This document shows positions 3,955-7,238 of a stretch of 64,000 nt of DNA, piece after piece. The translations under genes and the position numbers were made by a program. Below the pieces are notes generated by a model. The model saw only the letters and a list, made by a program, of their open reading frames with translations, searched no databases and was not told the origin of the DNA. Origin of the DNA: an uncultured Actinomycetota bacterium (GTDB lineage Bacteria > Actinomycetota > Actinomycetes > JAFAQI01); assembly GCA_963770565.1 (NCBI GenBank), contig CAVYQE010000002.1, forward strand, positions 576,001 to 640,000, given 5' to 3'. The first letter of the stretch is position 1. The number at the start of each line of letters is the position of its first letter.

Positions 3955-5469
3955 CTAGTAGGCGCCGTCGTTGCGAACGATGGCGAACAGCGTCTTCCAG
4001 ATGATCATCGCGTCGAGCGCGAACGACCAGTTCTCCACGTAGTAGAGATCAAGCCGGACGCTGTCGTCCCAACTCAGGTTGGACCGGCCGGACACCTGCC
4101 ACAGCCCGGTGATTCCGGGCCGGACCAGCAGCCGGCGGGCCACCTCGGTGCCGTACTGTGCGACCTCGCCCGGCAGCGGTGGGCGCGGCCCGACCAAGGC
4201 CATGTCGCCCCGGACGACGTTCCAAAGCTGGGGCACTTCGTCGAGCGACCACTTGCGCAGCAGCCGACCCACCCGCGTGACGCGTGGGTCCTCGCGGATC
4301 TTGAACAGCAGCCCATCGGCCAGCTCGTTCTGCTCGCGCAATGAGTCGAGCAACGACTCCGCATCGGCCCGCATCGTCCGGATCTTGTAGACGGTGAACT
4401 CCCGGCCGTTCTTCCCGACCCTGGTCTGGCGGAACAACGGCGCACCGTGGCTGTCGATCCGCACGATGATCGCCAGCATGATCAACAGCGGCAGCACGAG
4501 CAGGAACGCCGCGGTCGCGCACAGCCACTCGACGGTCGCCTTCAGCAGCTGGCGCGGGCCGGACAGCTCCGGCTCCTCGACGTGCAGAAGGGGCAGGCCG
4601 GCCACCGGGCGAACGCTGATCCGCGGCCCGGCCACGTCGAGCAGCGCGGGCGCGGCGATCAAGGAGACGCCGGTGCTCTCGAGCTCCCACGACAGCCGCC
4701 GCAACACCGCAGGCGACATGCCCGGCCCGGAGGCGACGGCGACCGTGTCTGCACCGGCCTCGGCCACTGCAGTCAGCACCTGGGTCAACGAGCCAAGCAC
4801 CGGAAGGTCTGGGACGACGAGCGCCTCGCTCGAGGTCGGCATGCACGCGCCCACGAGGGTGTATCCAACGTACGGGTCGTGGCTGAGCTGATCGGCGAGG
4901 TCACGAATCCCCTCGACGCCCCCGACCACGAGCACCCGGTGCATATAGCCGCCTTTGCGCCGTCGGGCATGCAGCCAACGGCGCTGGGCGTACCGGCCGA
5001 AGAGGAGCAAGGCGGTGCCGACCGGAAGCGCGATCGCGACGTAGCCCCGGGCCAGGTCGATCTTGAAGGTGTAGGCGACCACTGCCAGCACCGCCATCAG
5101 GCGAAGTGACGCACCGCTCACCCGCTTGAACTCGTCGGCACCGGTGCCGAGGAAGGGCATCTCATAGGCGCGCGCAATCACCAGCGCGCCGATCCAGACC
5201 GGTACGAGCAGCACTGAGAGCATCGGATAGGACAGACCACTCACGTGGTCATCGGCACTGCCAAACCGGACGTACAACGCAAGCAGCATGCTGCCGAGAA
5301 TGATGAGGAAATCGACCGCAACGACCATCGCGAGATAACGGCGCTGCCAGATGTCGACCGGCCGCTGTCGCTCACCAGTCTCACGTTGGAGCAGGTTCCG
5401 AACAGCGGGGGTCAAATCGGGCGCGGCCGAGCCGCTTTCGGCAGCCAGCGTCACGCGTTGTCCCCACAT
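3955..5469 (-). CDS. priming polyprenyl-phosphate glycosylphosphotransferase (WcaJ/WbaP family)
   Basis: N-terminal TM helices, Rossmann-like middle, C-terminal KIRTM..DPRVTRVG..SLDEVPQLWNV..GDMALVGPRP..PGITGLWQVSGR..DLYYVENWS. Confidence 0.93.
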   Translation of the reverse strand: MWGQRVTLAAESGSAAPDLTPAVRNLLQRETGERQRPVDIWQRRYLAMVVAVDFLIILGSMLLALYVRFGSADDHVSGLSYPMLSVLLVPVWIGALVIARAYEMPFLGTGADEFKRVSGASLRLMAVLAVVAYTFKIDLARGYVAIALPVGTALLLFGRYAQRRWLHARRRKGGYMHRVLVVGGVEGIRDLADQLSHDPYVGYTLVGACMPTSSEALVVPDLPVLGSLTQVLTAVAEAGADTVAVASGPGMSPAVLRRLSWELESTGVSLIAAPALLDVAGPRISVRPVAGLPLLHVEEPELSGPRQLLKATVEWLCATAAFLLVLPLLIMLAIIVRIDSHGAPLFRQTRVGKNGREFTVYKIRTMRADAESLLDSLREQNELADGLLFKIREDPRVTRVGRLLRKWSLDEVPQLWNVVRGDMALVGPRPPLPGEVAQYGTEVARRLLVRPGITGLWQVSGRSNLSWDDSVRLDLYYVENWSFALDAMIIWKTLFAIVRNDGAY

Positions 5470-5624
5470 TCTCAAAGGAGCCGCTCCAGGTTAGGGCGCG
5501 TTCAATCGCCTGTCAGCCCCTATCCCAAGCCGGGCCTTGACCACGCCCGTGCGCGCGGGGTCGCGGCGACGTCCGGGACAGGTTTCCGTTCGGTAAATGC
5601 ATCGGCATTCCGGCGCGGAAGGCT

Positions 5625-5815
5625 TAGGCTTCCCCCACACGAGAAAGGAGGTGGTCCACACTTTGAGTACACGTTGGACTCGTGAGGTGACCGTCCGCTA
5701 GACGCCGTCTTCGGACTCGTTGTGAGACAAGCTCGGACGCACGGCGTCCGGCAAATCCCTCGACGGTTACTGCGCCCCCGGGCAGCCGGCCCGTCCAGCC
5801 GGCAACCGCGCTCAC
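5625..5815 (+). ncRNA. putative structured small RNA carrying a micro-ORF
   Basis: TAGGCT -10 at 5625-5630, AAAGGAGGT at 5644-5652, micro-ORF, 8-bp helix 5701-5708/5741-5748, and a multibranch 3' domain with C-rich loops. Confidence 0.45.
5663..5701 (+). CDS. putative 12-aa micropeptide MSTRWTREVTVR
   Basis: TTG...TAG, 11 nt downstream of a perfect AGGAGG Shine-Dalgarno. Confidence 0.4.
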   Translation: MSTRWTREVTVR

Positions 5816-5835
5816 ACAGTGAGCGACCGGTTAAT

Positions 5836-5962
5836 GCCCGGGGGCACTTTCATGGGCGGCACTTCAATGTGCAGAGCCCGGGGGCACTTTCACGGGCGGC
5901 ACTTCAATGTGTTGAGCCCGCGGGCAGTCTCATGTGCGGCGCTTCGATGTCCAAAGCCCGGG
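5836..5962. repeat. tandem repeat, 3 x 40 bp
   Basis: GCCCGGGGGCACTTTCAYGGGCGGCACTTCAATGTG.... at 5836 and 5876, degenerate copy at 5916. Confidence 0.9.
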
Positions 5963-5966
5963 CTGC

Positions 5967-7238
5967 CTACTTCAGCGAGAGCCAGGTGGCCACGTCGACG
6001 ACGCCGGTCGCCGTGAGCTTGTGCGCCTGCTGCCAGGCGATGACCGCGGCCTTGGTTGCCGCGCCGAAACCGCCGTCGACGGTCAGCGATGCGCCGCGCC
6101 GGTTGAGGTCGAGCTGGAGTTGGGTCACCGTGAAGCCCTGGTCGCCCAACTTGACCGGCAGCGCCAGTCCGGCCACCGGGCGGACCACCTGGGGCAGCAG
6201 GTCGGTCGTCCACATCGGCACGACCTGGACGTTCTCGCCGGTCTGGGGGGAGTCGAGCAGGTCGCCCCCGCCGACATACATCGCCACGTGGTAGGCCGTC
6301 GAGGGCTTGCTGACATCGCTGGCGTAGAAGAGCAGGTCGCCTTGCTGGGCCTCGTTCAAGGGCACCAGCTTGCCGGCGCCGGCGTACTGTTCGGCCGCCG
6401 TCCGCGGGATGGTCAGCCCGGCATGCAGGTACGACGTCATCTGCAGGCCTGAGCAGTCGTAGCCCTTCGGGCCGGTGCCACCCCAGATGTAGGGCTTGCC
6501 GAGCTGCTTGTGGGCGAAGGCCATCGCCTGCAACGCGACCGGGTTCTTGGTCGTGCCGGGTCGCTTCACCAGCTCGGCCGCGAGCGTCACGACCTTCTTG
6601 CGAATCCTCGCCTGGGCGCGCGCGTCCGCGGTCTGGCTCGGCAGGATCGAGCTCGCGGTCGAGCACTCCGGCGTACCGAACAACGTGAGTGCCTTCCACG
6701 TCGCCGGCGAGGTGATGCCGGTCACCGGCAGGCGCGCCGCCTTCTGGACCATCTCGACCGCGTCGGTGGTCGGGCCGCCGAAGACCCCGTTGACCGCGGT
6801 GCCGACCATTCGCTGCAAGACCTCGACCGCAAGACCCTCCGCGCCGGTGGACAGCCGCGCGCAGGTCAACCGGACGCCGGTGCCGAGCACCCGCGACCCG
6901 CAGGCCGCCTCGGCGGTCGTAGCCGGCAACGCCGCCCAGGTCGCTGCATCAACCGCGCCGGTCGCCGGCAGCGAGTGCGCCCGCTGCCAGGCCTGCAATG
7001 CCTTGACGGTGCCCTTGCCGAAGTTGCCGTTGACCGGGTGGCCGATCGCGGTCTGAATCGATCGCACCGCGGCTCCGGTCGCACCCTGGCCGAGCACCGC
7101 GCAGGTGGTGACGGGCGCCTTCCGCGAGCCCGCGGCGTGCGCTACGGGCGACGCAACCACCGCGGTCAGCGCCAGGGCGAGCGTTGTCGCTGCCACGCCG
7201 AGCCGGAGCATCCGCGGTCTGAGCACGCATGACCGCAC
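5967..7238 (-). CDS. secreted NlpC/P60 peptidoglycan endopeptidase with multiple peptidoglycan-binding domains
   Basis: Signal peptide; PG_binding_1-like repeats (G.FG..T..AV..WQ..H.L..TG.VD.ATW); GKPYIWGG..DCSGL and HVAMY catalytic motifs; GGAGG RBS. Confidence 0.92.
   Translation of the reverse strand: MRSCVLRPRMLRLGVAATTLALALTAVVASPVAHAAGSRKAPVTTCAVLGQGATGAAVRSIQTAIGHPVNGNFGKGTVKALQAWQRAHSLPATGAVDAATWAALPATTAEAACGSRVLGTGVRLTCARLSTGAEGLAVEVLQRMVGTAVNGVFGGPTTDAVEMVQKAARLPVTGITSPATWKALTLFGTPECSTASSILPSQTADARAQARIRKKVVTLAAELVKRPGTTKNPVALQAMAFAHKQLGKPYIWGGTGPKGYDCSGLQMTSYLHAGLTIPRTAAEQYAGAGKLVPLNEAQQGDLLFYASDVSKPSTAYHVAMYVGGGDLLDSPQTGENVQVVPMWTTDLLPQVVRPVAGLALPVKLGDQGFTVTQLQLDLNRRGASLTVDGGFGAATKAAVIAWQQAHKLTATGVVDVATWLSLK

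What the first reader, a model, noticed from the sequence alone, without database searches (positions are those of the whole stretch)
5625..5815. Orphan structured transcript with a perfect SD and a 12-codon micro-ORF (candidate new sRNA/micropeptide)
Seen: this gap has no downstream + strand gene. It contains a TAGGCT -10 box, then AGAAAGGAGGTG (an unusually perfect anti-16S match), then TTG-AGT-ACA-CGT-TGG-ACT-CGT-GAG-GTG-ACC-GTC-CGC-TAG (MSTRWTREVTVR). Directly after the stop come a perfect helix GACGCCGT/ACGGCGTC and a 3' domain closed by CGGTT/AACCG. That domain holds two hairpins with C-rich loops (CTGC-gcccccgg-GCAG and CCGGC-ccgtcca-GCCGG). Most repeats in this window sit between convergent genes, and the 40-bp repeat just downstream fits that pattern only if this + strand unit is transcribed. 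Inference: a stand-alone dual-function RNA. It could be a ribosome-binding or SD-decoy RNA, a micropeptide mRNA, or an sRNA using C-loops against SD sequences. It matches no RNA family I can name.
Basis: partly seen in the sequence, partly recalled or inferred. Interest (0 to 1): 0.72.

Follow-up and report, generated by a model that had tools for sequence, protein, structure and literature searches.

The report
Known sRNA with conserved mini-ORF
This is a copy of Ms_IGR-5, a small RNA already catalogued in actinobacteria but of unknown function; its very long ribosome-binding site, its 12-codon reading frame and a pseudoknot are kept across the phylum, which suggests that it works by engaging ribosomes and not by making a useful peptide.

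Summary
The feature is real but not orphan. Window 5637-5853 (+) matches Rfam RF02471, Ms_IGR-5, at 94.7 bits against a cut-off of 45, over the full model. It is single-copy in this genome and was found in 30 of 41 relatives.

Comparative analysis shows:
- a conserved -10 box;
- a 15-16 nt complement to the 3' tail of 16S rRNA;
- an ORF that stays open, with an in-frame start and a fixed stop, in all 150 unique homologues counted;
- a covarying long-range helix that buries ORF codons 9-12;
- a pseudoknot between ORF codons 5-6 and a 3' hairpin loop, backed by three compensatory change types.

Only the Glu-Val codon pair (GAGGUG) was invariant in the Rfam-defined hits, so the peptide is unlikely to be the product that matters.

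Best reading (about 0.5): a stand-alone sRNA whose function needs ribosome binding and translation of the mini-ORF in cis.

I found no expression data for this organism. The searched papers call the family uncharacterized. This is a new member of a known family. The architecture is of moderate interest.

The parts
5625..5630 (+). -10 promoter box TAGGCT (TANNNT), 6 nt upstream of the inferred +1A at 5637
   Evidence: TANNNT starts 22 or 23 nt before GGAGG in 141 of 147 unique upstream sequences. The E. coli-type consensus scan found no promoter. A preprint places the M. smegmatis IGR-5 start at an A.
5637..5853 (+). sRNA, member of Rfam RF02471 (Ms_IGR-5)
   Evidence: cmscan 94.7 bits, cut-off 45, E 8.4e-22, model 1-184. 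Single copy in the genome. MFE z-score -5.58.
5642..5657 (+). Extended Shine-Dalgarno AGAAAGGAGGUGGUCC, complementary to the last 16 nt of the genome's own 16S rRNA gene (15 Watson-Crick pairs and 1 G.U)
   Evidence: Own 16S 3' end read. The 14-nt form occurs only twice in 4.43 Mb, here and antisense to the 16S gene. In the homologues, substitutions keep the pairing. Predicted duplex -25.3 kcal/mol against -8.7 for GGAGG alone.
5663..5701 (+). 12-codon mini-ORF, TTG..TAG, MSTRWTREVTVR; the start lies 11 nt after GGAGG
   Evidence: In-frame start, open frame and fixed stop in the homologues.
5675..5679 (+). Pseudoknot arm UGGAC (ORF codons 5-6), pairs with 5793-5797
   Evidence: The exact complement lies in a hairpin loop of the 3' domain in 119 of 122 sequences, against a background of 0.124. 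Compensatory types CGAC:GUCG, AGAC:GUCU and GGAU:AUCC.
5684..5690 (+). Internal SD-like GAGGUGA (codons 8-10); GAGGUG was invariant in the Rfam-defined hits
   Evidence: Predicted duplex with the 16S tail -11.3 kcal/mol. A role is inferred only.
5686..5695 (+). 5' arm of long-range helix P1' (ORF codons 9-11, GGUGACCGUC), pairs with 5762-5771
   Evidence: RNAalifold. 6 of 10 pairs show changes on both sides, and 95.2% of cells pair, in 95 sequences. Also in the single-sequence fold.
5697..5752 (+). P2 hairpin. P2a 5697-5699/5750-5752 takes in codon 12 and the U of the stop. P2b 5701-5708/5741-5748. The apex varies in length.
   Evidence: (helix 4: 7 of 7 pairs with changes on both sides).
5753..5761 (+). 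Conserved internal-loop linker AAAUCCCUC (family consensus GAAUCC)
   Evidence: Conserved in alignments A1 and A2 and, by my reading, in the phylum-level sequences. Role unknown.
5762..5771 (+). 3' arm of P1' (GACGGUUACU)
5774..5845 (+). 3' domain. P3 terminator-like stem 5774-5783/5836-5845 encloses P4 (5785-5790/5798-5803, loop CCGUCCA) and P5 (5804-5815/5819-5832).
   Evidence: Rfam alignment. P3 and P5 covariation. Fold. The simple terminator scan found none, because the U tract is poor.
5793..5797 (+). Pseudoknot arm GUCCA in the P4 apical loop
5836..5962 (+). 40-nt tandem repeat, 3.2 copies; the first unit begins with the 3' arm of P3
   Evidence: TRF. Only a self-hit in the genome. A sister genome has a 25-nt repeat at the same place.

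Best explanation
Window 5637-5853 (+) is an independently transcribed, single-copy member of the sRNA family Ms_IGR-5 (Rfam RF02471). I put membership at about 0.97.

Anatomy:
- The transcript starts about 5 nt before a 15-16 nt complement to the free 3' tail of 16S rRNA.
- A weak start codon (UUG) follows 11 nt after GGAGG. It lies in an A/U-rich stretch that is unpaired in the centroid fold.
- The 12-codon ORF then runs into structure. Codons 5-6 pair with the apical loop of the 3' hairpin P4, forming a pseudoknot.
- Codons 9-12 and the U of the stop codon sit in a long covarying helix (P1'/P2a).
- A GC-rich terminator-like stem ends the RNA.

Proposed mechanism (inferred, about 0.5): ribosome engagement is part of how the RNA works in cis. 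A 30S subunit docks on the extended SD and initiates. Translating the mini-ORF must open the pseudoknot and P1'. This couples the RNA's conformation, and probably its stability at the 5' end, to translation. The peptide itself is probably not the effector.

Shown: family membership, promoter conservation, the structure, the pseudoknot, the SD complementarity, and conservation of the frame, start and stop.

Inferred: that ribosomes bind and translate in this organism, and what follows from that.
For: Membership:
- 94.7 bits against a cut-off of 45, full model.
- One copy in the genome.
- 30 of 41 relatives and 45 of 151 phylum genomes match at E<=0.001; 23 of 151 are over the cut-off.

Own transcription unit:
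- -10 box at a fixed distance in 141 of 147 unique upstream sequences.
- Flanking proteins fall into 133 clusters out of 260, and the downstream gene lies on either strand, 58 against 67.

SD:
- In 45 unique Rfam-defined sequences, every position opposite a 16S C is G, and positions opposite U are only A or G. The pattern stops at the edges of the element.
- The 14-nt form is unique in the genome apart from the antisense strand of the 16S gene.
- Predicted duplex -25.3 kcal/mol.

ORF:
- ATG, GTG or TTG lies 6-14 nt after GGAGG in the ORF frame in 25 of 25, 15 of 24 (22 of 24 if CTG is counted) and 101 of 101 unique sequences. The other two frames have 0 to 7.
- The ORF frame is stop-free in 150 of 150 unique sequences, against 48 and 2 for the other frames.
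- Shuffling the variable part gives a mean of 45.4 sequences with an in-frame stop (sd 5.4, minimum 26 of 2000 shuffles). None is observed.
- The triplet at the stop position is TAG, TAA or TGA. TGG was not seen.
- ORF length is 12, 13, 14 or 15 codons.

The peptide is not conserved:
- Codons 2-4 vary at all three positions.
- Codons 10-11 covary with the linker.
- GAGGUG was the only invariant part in the Rfam-defined hits.

Structure:
- 93.1% of cells pair, against 84.2% in shuffles (0 of 500 reach it) and 28-39% when partners are slid.
- 16 of 25 pairs show changes on both sides.
- Pseudoknot complement found in 119 of 122, with three compensatory types.

Literature, passages read:
- MS_IGR-5 homologues carry ribosome footprints in M. 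abscessus and M. smegmatis (PMC4974804).
- The RNA is validated by RNA-seq in S. lividans (PMC8079986).
- It is an sRNA transcription unit in S. avermitilis (PMC8780764).
- It is NAD-capped at a +1A in M. smegmatis (bioRxiv 10.1101/2021.12.14.472595).
Against: - I have no expression or translation data for this organism.
- The start is not canonical everywhere. Of 24 unique phylum-level sequences, 7 have CTG and 2 (L163, L177) have no NTG at the start position.
- GGAGG-to-start spacing is 10-12 nt in the family. In this genome's long ORFs it peaks at 5-6 nt, by a rough count.
- The pseudoknot begins at +14 and P1' at +24 from the start codon, so the fold should hinder initiation and elongation.
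- From codon 5 on, nearly every nucleotide is also under RNA-level constraint. The Arg codon is CGU in 28 of 30 Rfam hits in a high-GC genome. Conservation of 'TREV' therefore says nothing for a peptide. The frame could in principle be a by-product of a few structural spacings, since there are only a handful of independent indel events.
- One homologue (L161) has GGUGG in the SD core.
- The authors of PMC4974804 themselves note that many non-coding RNAs show footprints.
- The homologues are related, so the counts overstate independence.
- 101 of the 150 unique sequences were found with a pattern that fixed the SD and the TREV codons.
Confidence: 0.5

Rival explanations
1. Purely non-coding sRNA. 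The RNA acts by base pairing or protein binding. The SD-like element, the NUG and the URR triplet are structural or recognition elements, and any translation is incidental.
For: All ORF nucleotides from codon 5 on are explained by the pseudoknot, P1' and P2a. With the CTG clade included, the start column reads NTG. No synonymous-substitution signature was seen except at the Thr wobble position. The family was named as an sRNA, and the authors of PMC4974804 treat such footprints as ambiguous.
Against: Codons 2-4 are hypervariable and rich in out-of-frame stops (71 and 58 of 124), yet none falls in frame. Shuffles give a mean of 45 sequences with an in-frame stop where 0 are seen. The stop position is only TAG, TAA or TGA, never TGG, and its A and G lie in an internal loop. 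Start-like triplets occur almost only in the ORF frame. The complement to the 16S tail follows the tail base by base.
Confidence: 0.2
2. Micropeptide mRNA. The 12-residue peptide (M-x-x-x-[W/R/G]-T-R-E-V-[T/A]-[V/A]-[R/S]) is the effector.
For: Start, frame and stop are kept. TREV is constant within the class sample (28 of 30 Rfam hits). Ribosome footprints are reported (PMC4974804).
Against: In the phylum sample only Glu-Val stays constant, and length varies from 12 to 15 residues. Residues 2-4 are free. Residues 10-11 change together with compensatory changes in the RNA partner strand. Arg stays CGU, which is an RNA-level pattern. A 217-nt structured RNA is far more than a 39-nt ORF needs.
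Confidence: 0.12
3. Ribosome decoy or sponge. The RNA captures the 16S 3' tail and parks 30S or 70S particles, lowering or reshaping translation capacity. This would be analogous to 6S/Ms1 RNA acting on RNA polymerase.
For: A 15-bp SD:anti-SD duplex at -25.3 kcal/mol is far beyond what initiation needs. The start is weak and placed late. The pseudoknot sits where the mRNA channel entrance of an initiating ribosome would be; that geometry is recalled and inferred. A second SD-like site lies 9 nt before the stop.
Against: It is a single-copy gene. I have no abundance data here. In the M. smegmatis preprint IGR-5 is not singled out as highly expressed, unlike Ms1 and IGR-2 (passages only). Titration would need copy numbers close to those of ribosomes.
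Confidence: 0.13
4. The signal belongs to the minus strand: either the 63-aa ORF at 5624-5815 (-), or a 5' leader or riboswitch of the sugar-transferase gene at 3955-5475 (-).
For: The ORF's coordinates almost coincide with the finding. Both neighbouring genes are on the minus strand.
Against: The ORF has no Pfam match. Its GC3 is 0.58, against 0.86 and 0.92 in the neighbours. Antisense open stretches occur in two different frames about equally often, 89 and 87 of 122. The Rfam match, the promoter and the covariation are all on the + strand. The sugar-transferase neighbour recurs in only 6 loci.
Confidence: 0.02

Closest known systems
Rfam RF02471, Ms_IGR-5 (Actinobacteria sRNA; M. smegmatis IGR-5 = ncMSMEG15794c)
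   Same: Full-length covariance-model match well above the cut-off. Same order of elements: SD-like 5' end, P2 hairpin, terminator stem enclosing the GUCCA hairpin. The Rfam consensus printed also reads as a 12-codon UUG..UAG frame.
   Different: The Rfam structure line pairs GGUGGU of the SD with ORF codons 10-11. My covariation analysis supports pairing of codons 9-11 with the downstream linker. In homologues with GGUGAU, the Rfam pairing loses a pair, by my reading. The pseudoknot is not in the structure line shown. This copy carries a 40-nt tandem repeat fused to its terminator.
Dual-function sRNAs (SgrS/SgrT, RNAIII/hld, SR1/SR1P); recalled, not tested
   Same: A structured regulatory RNA that also holds a short translated frame.
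   Different: In those RNAs the peptide is conserved and active and the ORF is longer. Here the peptide is not conserved and no target pairing is known.
5' stabiliser elements of Gram-positive mRNAs (STAB-SD of cryIIIA, ermC leader); recalled, not tested
   Same: A strong SD a few nucleotides from the 5' end. In those systems it binds ribosomes and shields the RNA from 5'-end-dependent decay.
   Different: No decay data exist here. This element is longer (15-16 nt) and is followed by a conserved start, frame and stop, and a pseudoknot.
6C RNA (RF01066)
   Same: An sRNA with GC-rich hairpins, conserved across actinobacteria.
   Different: No match to RF01066 at E up to 10. The supposed C-rich loops are a helix arm and a pseudoknot partner.
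Leader-peptide attenuators and regulatory uORFs
   Same: A short frame whose translation, not its product, matters, with translation remodelling downstream RNA structure.
   Different: There is no downstream co-oriented gene. The unit ends in its own terminator, and its neighbours vary.

Membership tests
Rfam RF02471 Ms_IGR-5 | Covariance-model score at or above the curated gathering score (45 bits) | tested here: met
   94.7 bits, E 8.4e-22; the same hit in the whole-genome search.
Rfam RF02471 Ms_IGR-5 | Full-length match with the family's helices (P2, terminator stem, inner GUCCA hairpin) | tested here: met
   Model positions 1-184, not truncated. The same helices appear in the single-sequence fold and in RNAalifold. 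The first Rfam helix is replaced by P1'.
Rfam RF02471 Ms_IGR-5 | Occurrence in Actinomycetota as a single intergenic gene | tested here: met
   One copy. Named hosts include Mycobacterium, Micromonospora, Amycolatopsis, Nocardioides and Cellulomonas. Two contigs labelled as other phyla also match (L050, L104).
Rfam RF02471 Ms_IGR-5 | Expressed as a small RNA | not testable with these tools
   No RNA holder was listed for this stretch. Expression is reported for homologues only.
Dual-function (coding) sRNA | The ORF is translated | tested here: inconclusive
   Sequence signatures favour it. There are no ribosome data for this organism. A footprint is reported for homologues.
Dual-function (coding) sRNA | Conserved, functional peptide | tested here: not met
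   Only Glu-Val was invariant in the Rfam-defined hits. Residues 2-4 are free. Residues 10-11 follow RNA covariation.
Dual-function (coding) sRNA | Base pairing with target mRNAs | not tested
   No target search was run.
6C RNA (RF01066) | Model match; two hairpins with C-rich apical loops | tested here: not met
   No RF01066 hit at E up to 10. See for what the 'loops' really are.
Leader peptide / attenuator | A regulated gene downstream on the same strand | tested here: not met
   The next gene is convergent here. The downstream strand is mixed, 58 + against 67 -.
5' stabiliser SD (STAB-SD type) | A strong SD close to the 5' end that prolongs RNA half-life through ribosome binding | not testable with these tools
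   The position is met by inference: +1 at about 5637 and SD from 5642. Half-life was not measured.

The most novel reading that the evidence does not exclude
Ms_IGR-5 is a ribosome-engaging riboregulator. It seizes the whole free 3' tail of 16S rRNA with a 15-nt complement. It then holds an initiating ribosome on a weak start codon in front of a pseudoknot. A second SD-like site lies 9 nt before the stop. The RNA would therefore act on ribosomes, by parking, marking or sensing a subpopulation, much as 6S/Ms1 RNA acts on RNA polymerase. That would make it a conserved regulator of translation capacity across Actinomycetota.
Probability: 0.13. Interest if true: 0.85.

Novelty: new member of a known kind. 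Interest (0 to 1): 0.48.

Why it matters
The RNA itself is catalogued, so the 'orphan' claim falls. The family is nevertheless one of the few sRNAs matched in genomes across Actinomycetota. It is reported from Mycobacterium and Streptomyces and was found here in other classes of the phylum. The papers I could search call it uncharacterized or merely list it.

The features assembled here give concrete, cheap experiments for a long-unexplained conserved RNA:
- a complement to the whole 16S tail that follows the tail base by base;
- a frame kept translatable while its peptide drifts;
- a pseudoknot and a helix that bury that frame.

If ribosome engagement is its function, this would be a kind of RNA-level control of, or by, translation that the papers I read do not describe for this phylum. 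The result also corrects the first helix of the Rfam model and adds a pseudoknot.

Tried and rejected
- RNA evidence: no RNA holder was listed for window 5480-5966. Read laying was not run, because the three listed runs held next to none of the words.
- Simple promoter and terminator scan: 0 promoters and 0 terminators. The scan uses E. coli-type rules. The -10 box was found by comparison instead.
- Founding paper (Li et al. 2013, PMC3527728): not held. I know it only from reference lists.
I modelled the 5' domain alone. P3, P4 and P5 therefore rest on Rfam, RNAalifold and my reading.
- Terminator regex and two automatic ways of picking the P4 loop: these mis-picked 15 and 26 of 122 sequences. 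They were replaced by the loop-context test.
- A bug counted the stop codon itself as an in-frame stop. It was corrected.
- Conserved synteny or a regulated neighbour: rejected.
- Dispersed repeat family: rejected.
- Antisense 63-aa ORF: rejected.
- P0 hairpin (GUCC 5654-5657 with GGAC 5676-5679, predicted): the 5' arm does not change where the ORF motif does (the L160 clade and L175). P0 is at best an alternative to the pseudoknot.
- Literature searches for a described function or an alias: searches found only listings.
- Supplementary tables were not consulted. Dataset S2 of PMC4974804 and Table S4 of PMC10454040 may hold footprint counts and coordinates that bear on translation.
Full report
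**1. What is at the site**

The gap 5476-5966 lies between two minus-strand genes:
- a Bac_transf sugar transferase at 3955-5475;
- an NlpC/P60 protein with peptidoglycan-binding repeats at 5967-7238.

- TAGGCT at 5625-5630;
- AGAAAGGAGGTG at 5642-5653;
- the frame TTG AGT ACA CGT TGG ACT CGT GAG GTG ACC GTC CGC TAG at 5663-5701;
- the helix GACGCCGT/ACGGCGTC at 5701-5708 / 5741-5748;
- the hairpin CCGGC-ccgtcca-GCCGG.

A 40-nt tandem repeat follows at 5836-5962.

**2. It is a known family**

A scan of 5300-6100 against Rfam gave RF02471, Ms_IGR-5, at 5637-5853 on the + strand. The score was 94.7 bits against a gathering score of 45, E 8.4e-22, over model positions 1-184. All other rows were far below their cut-offs. 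RF01066 (6C) was not among the 8 rows listed at E up to 10.
- The family has one copy in this 4.43-Mb, 11-contig genome.
- It was found over the cut-off in 30 of 41 relatives.
- In an even sample of the phylum, 45 of 151 genomes matched at E<=0.001 and 23 of 151 were over the cut-off.
Named hosts include Mycobacterium, Micromonospora, Amycolatopsis, Nocardioides, Cellulomonas, Blastococcus and Kineococcus. Two MAG contigs are labelled as other phyla (L050, L104).

The statement 'matches no RNA family' is therefore wrong.

**3. What the papers say**

I read passages only.
- The family is listed as an RNA-seq-validated sRNA in S. lividans (PMC8079986).
- It is an sRNA transcription unit in S. 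avermitilis (PMC8780764).
- In M. smegmatis, IGR-5 is ncMSMEG15794c (PMC10454040).
- A preprint finds IGR-5 NAD-capped, with a +1A start 30 nt upstream of the start first reported. It calls the RNA 'validated but yet uncharacterized' (10.1101/2021.12.14.472595).
- PMC4974804 reports 'significant ribosomal reads' on MS_IGR-5 homologues in M. abscessus and M. smegmatis. It cautions that many non-coding RNAs show footprints.
- The founding paper (Li et al. 2013) is not held.
- Searches for a function or an alias found nothing further.

**4. A stand-alone unit**
- In 147 unique upstream sequences, a TANNNT box starts 22 nt (106 sequences) or 23 nt (35 sequences) before GGAGG. In the window this is TAGGCT, 6 nt before the A at 5637 where the Rfam model begins.
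- Neighbouring genes are not conserved. 260 flanking proteins fall into 133 clusters, the largest with 17 members. The downstream gene is co-oriented in 58 loci and convergent in 67. Cluster representatives are unrelated enzymes and transporters.
- The E. coli-type promoter and terminator scan found nothing. I attribute this to promoters without a -35 box and a terminator with a poor U tract.

**5. The SD is a complement of the whole 16S tail**
- The genome's own 16S gene ends ...GGATCACCTCCTTTCT.
- Window 5642-5657 pairs with these 16 nt through 15 Watson-Crick pairs and one G.U.
- The 14-nt form RRRGGAGGTGRTCC occurs twice in the genome: here and on the antisense strand of the 16S gene.
- In 45 unique hits found through Rfam, every position opposite a 16S C is G (45 of 45). 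Positions opposite U are only A or G. The position opposite A is T. Positions opposite G are C, or U in 2 sequences. Just outside the element all four bases occur.
- This test assumes the same 16S tail in all these taxa. I checked it only for this genome. The regex that located the element fixed part of the core, but not the five positions upstream of GGAGG.
- One hit (L161) has GGUGG in the core and was not located by the regex.
- The predicted duplex is -25.3 kcal/mol, against -8.7 for GGAGG alone.

**6. The mini-ORF is kept translatable**

All 30 Rfam hits among the relatives carry a frame of 12 or 13 codons starting 10-12 nt after GGAGG. All 148 sequences with the strict anchor carry one of 12, 13 or 15 codons starting 7-13 nt after GGAGG.

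Among 124 unique SD-to-stop sequences:
- starts are TTG 65, ATG 40 and GTG 19;
- stops are TAG 116, TAA 6 and TGA 2;
- SD-to-start spacing is 10, 11, 12 or 13 nt (7 nt in two sequences), while start-to-anchor distance is 12, 15 or 21 nt;
- out-of-frame stop triplets occur in 86 and 124 of the 124 sequences, and none occurs in frame.

With the unpublished genomes excluded and the sets kept apart, ATG, GTG or TTG lies 6-14 nt after GGAGG in the ORF frame in:
- 25 of 25 class-level Rfam hits;
- 15 of 24 phylum-level Rfam hits, or 22 of 24 if CTG is counted;
- 101 of 101 pattern-defined sequences.

The other two frames have 0 to 7. In one search the stop triplet is TAG 135, TGA 8 and TAA 7, and the lengths are 12, 13, 14 and 15 codons.

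The ORF frame is stop-free in 150 of 150 unique sequences, against 48 and 2 for the other frames. Shuffling the variable part within each sequence gives a mean of 45.4 sequences with an in-frame stop (sd 5.4, minimum 26 in 2000 shuffles). None is observed.

Caveats:
- The sequences are related.
- The 101 pattern-defined sequences were selected with the SD and TREV codons fixed.
- Seven phylum-level sequences have CTG at the start position, and two (L163, L177) have no NTG there.

**7. The peptide is not what is conserved**
- Codons 2-4 vary at all three positions, with entropy 0.7-1.8 bits. Third positions are U-rich, which is atypical for this genome.
- In other classes the frame reads quite different residues, by my reading. 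Only GAG GTG stays.
- The Arg codon is CGT in 28 of 30 Rfam hits. In the phylum sample CGC also occurs.
- Codons 10-11 change together with their pairing partners.

**8. Structure**
- RNAalifold on 28 Rfam-delimited sequences predicted a long-range helix between ORF codons 9-11 and a conserved linker downstream of the P2 hairpin. It did not predict Rfam's first helix.
- I built a covariance model of the 5' domain and aligned 95 diverse loci.
- 93.1% of cells pair, against 84.2% in shuffles (0 of 500 reach the observed value) and 28-39% when partners are slid. 16 of 25 pairs show changes on both sides. For P1' this holds for 6 of 10 pairs, and for the P2b stem for 7 of 7. The alignment is fitted to the model, which favours the structure.
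- The window's own sequence folds into P1', P2, P3, P4 and P5. Its first 49 nt are unpaired in the centroid. MFE is -107 kcal/mol, z -5.58.
- P3 and P5 show compensatory changes.

**9. A pseudoknot**
- UGGAC in ORF codons 5-6 (5675-5679) is complementary to GUCCA in the P4 apical loop (5793-5797).
- In 119 of 122 sequences, the exact Watson-Crick complement of the ORF 4-mer lies inside a hairpin loop within the first 64 nt of the 3' domain. The background for random 4-mers is 0.124. Other ORF offsets give 4 to 38 of 122.
- Where the ORF motif differs, the loop differs to match: CGAC/UCGA with GUCG/UCGA (L160, L162, L166, L178), AGAC with GUCU (L175), and GGAU with AUCC (L159).
- L030 (GGGC) keeps the pairing through G.U. 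L104 pairs one position over. L151 has GUCC in a hairpin with an imperfect stem (my reading).
- The 5' copy of GUCC (5654-5657) stays unchanged in the L160 clade and in L175. The small hairpin P0 predicted is therefore not supported by covariation and may be an alternative state.

**10. Reading**

Taken together:
- the 5' end is built to bind the anti-SD tail;
- the start and the first codons sit in open, A/U-rich RNA;
- from +14 on, the frame is locked by a pseudoknot and a 10-bp helix;
- a second SD-like site (GAGGUGA, -11.3 kcal/mol) lies 9 nt before the stop.

GGAGG-to-start spacing is 11 nt here. The genome's rough modal spacing is 5-6 nt.

I infer that ribosome docking and translation of the frame are part of the RNA's mechanism in cis. 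They would open the pseudoknot and P1', and probably shield the 5' end. The peptide is a by-product.

My odds:
- this reading, about 0.5;
- purely non-coding RNA, 0.2;
- ribosome decoy, 0.13;
- functional micropeptide, 0.12;
- minus-strand explanations, 0.02. The antisense ORF has GC3 0.58 against 0.86 and 0.92 in the neighbours, no Pfam match and no consistent frame.

**11. Novelty and limits**

The RNA is a new member of a known family. The long complement to the 16S tail, the frame conservation, the corrected first helix and the pseudoknot are not mentioned in the passages I read. The searches found no other paper on the family.

Two earlier notes of this scan on other genomes reached similar conclusions. 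They are not independent evidence. I re-derived each point here.

No expression data exist for this organism. Supplementary tables were not consulted.

Counts include two unpublished genomes (L006, L013), and one search printed two more (L171, L179). No claim depends on them.

Noticed in passing
window 5836-5962: The 40-nt tandem repeat (3.2 copies) begins with the 3' arm of the sRNA's terminator stem and has no other copy in the genome. A same-genus genome has a 25-nt repeat (2.5 copies) at the corresponding place (L009 1457-1518). The terminator arm thus seems prone to local tandem duplication.
   Followed up: partly
L050 1777-1919 and L104 1860-1987: Two MAG contigs labelled Candidatus Polarisedimenticolia and Gemmatimonadota carry divergent members (71.8 and 46.5 bits with my 5'-domain model). 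They have 15-codon frames and U-rich terminators. This is either a wider range for the family or mis-binned contigs.
   Followed up: no
L164, L165, L167-L169, L172-L174, L176 (phylum-level hits): In one or two non-Actinomycetia lineages the start position holds CTG instead of TTG, ATG or GTG, while the frame (13-14 codons) and the stop are kept. This may be use of a CUG start behind a very strong SD, or loss of translation.
   Followed up: partly
window 5753-5761 and homologues: The internal-loop sequence GAAUCC, between P2a and the 3' arm of P1', is conserved in the class-level alignments and in the phylum-level sequences I read, with no pairing partner found. It may be a tertiary or protein contact.
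   Followed up: no
window 5967-7238 (-): The convergent neighbour is an NlpC/P60 peptidase with three PG_binding_1 repeats. The divergent neighbour (3955-5475, -) is a Bac_transf sugar transferase with a CoA_binding_3 domain. Each recurs next to the sRNA in only 6 loci, mostly genomes of the same genus.
   Followed up: partly
Rfam RF02471 consensus as printed: The first helix of the family's structure line (SD 3' part with ORF codons 10-11) competes with the better-supported P1'. It loses a pair in homologues that have GGUGAU. The curated model may need revision.
   Followed up: partly
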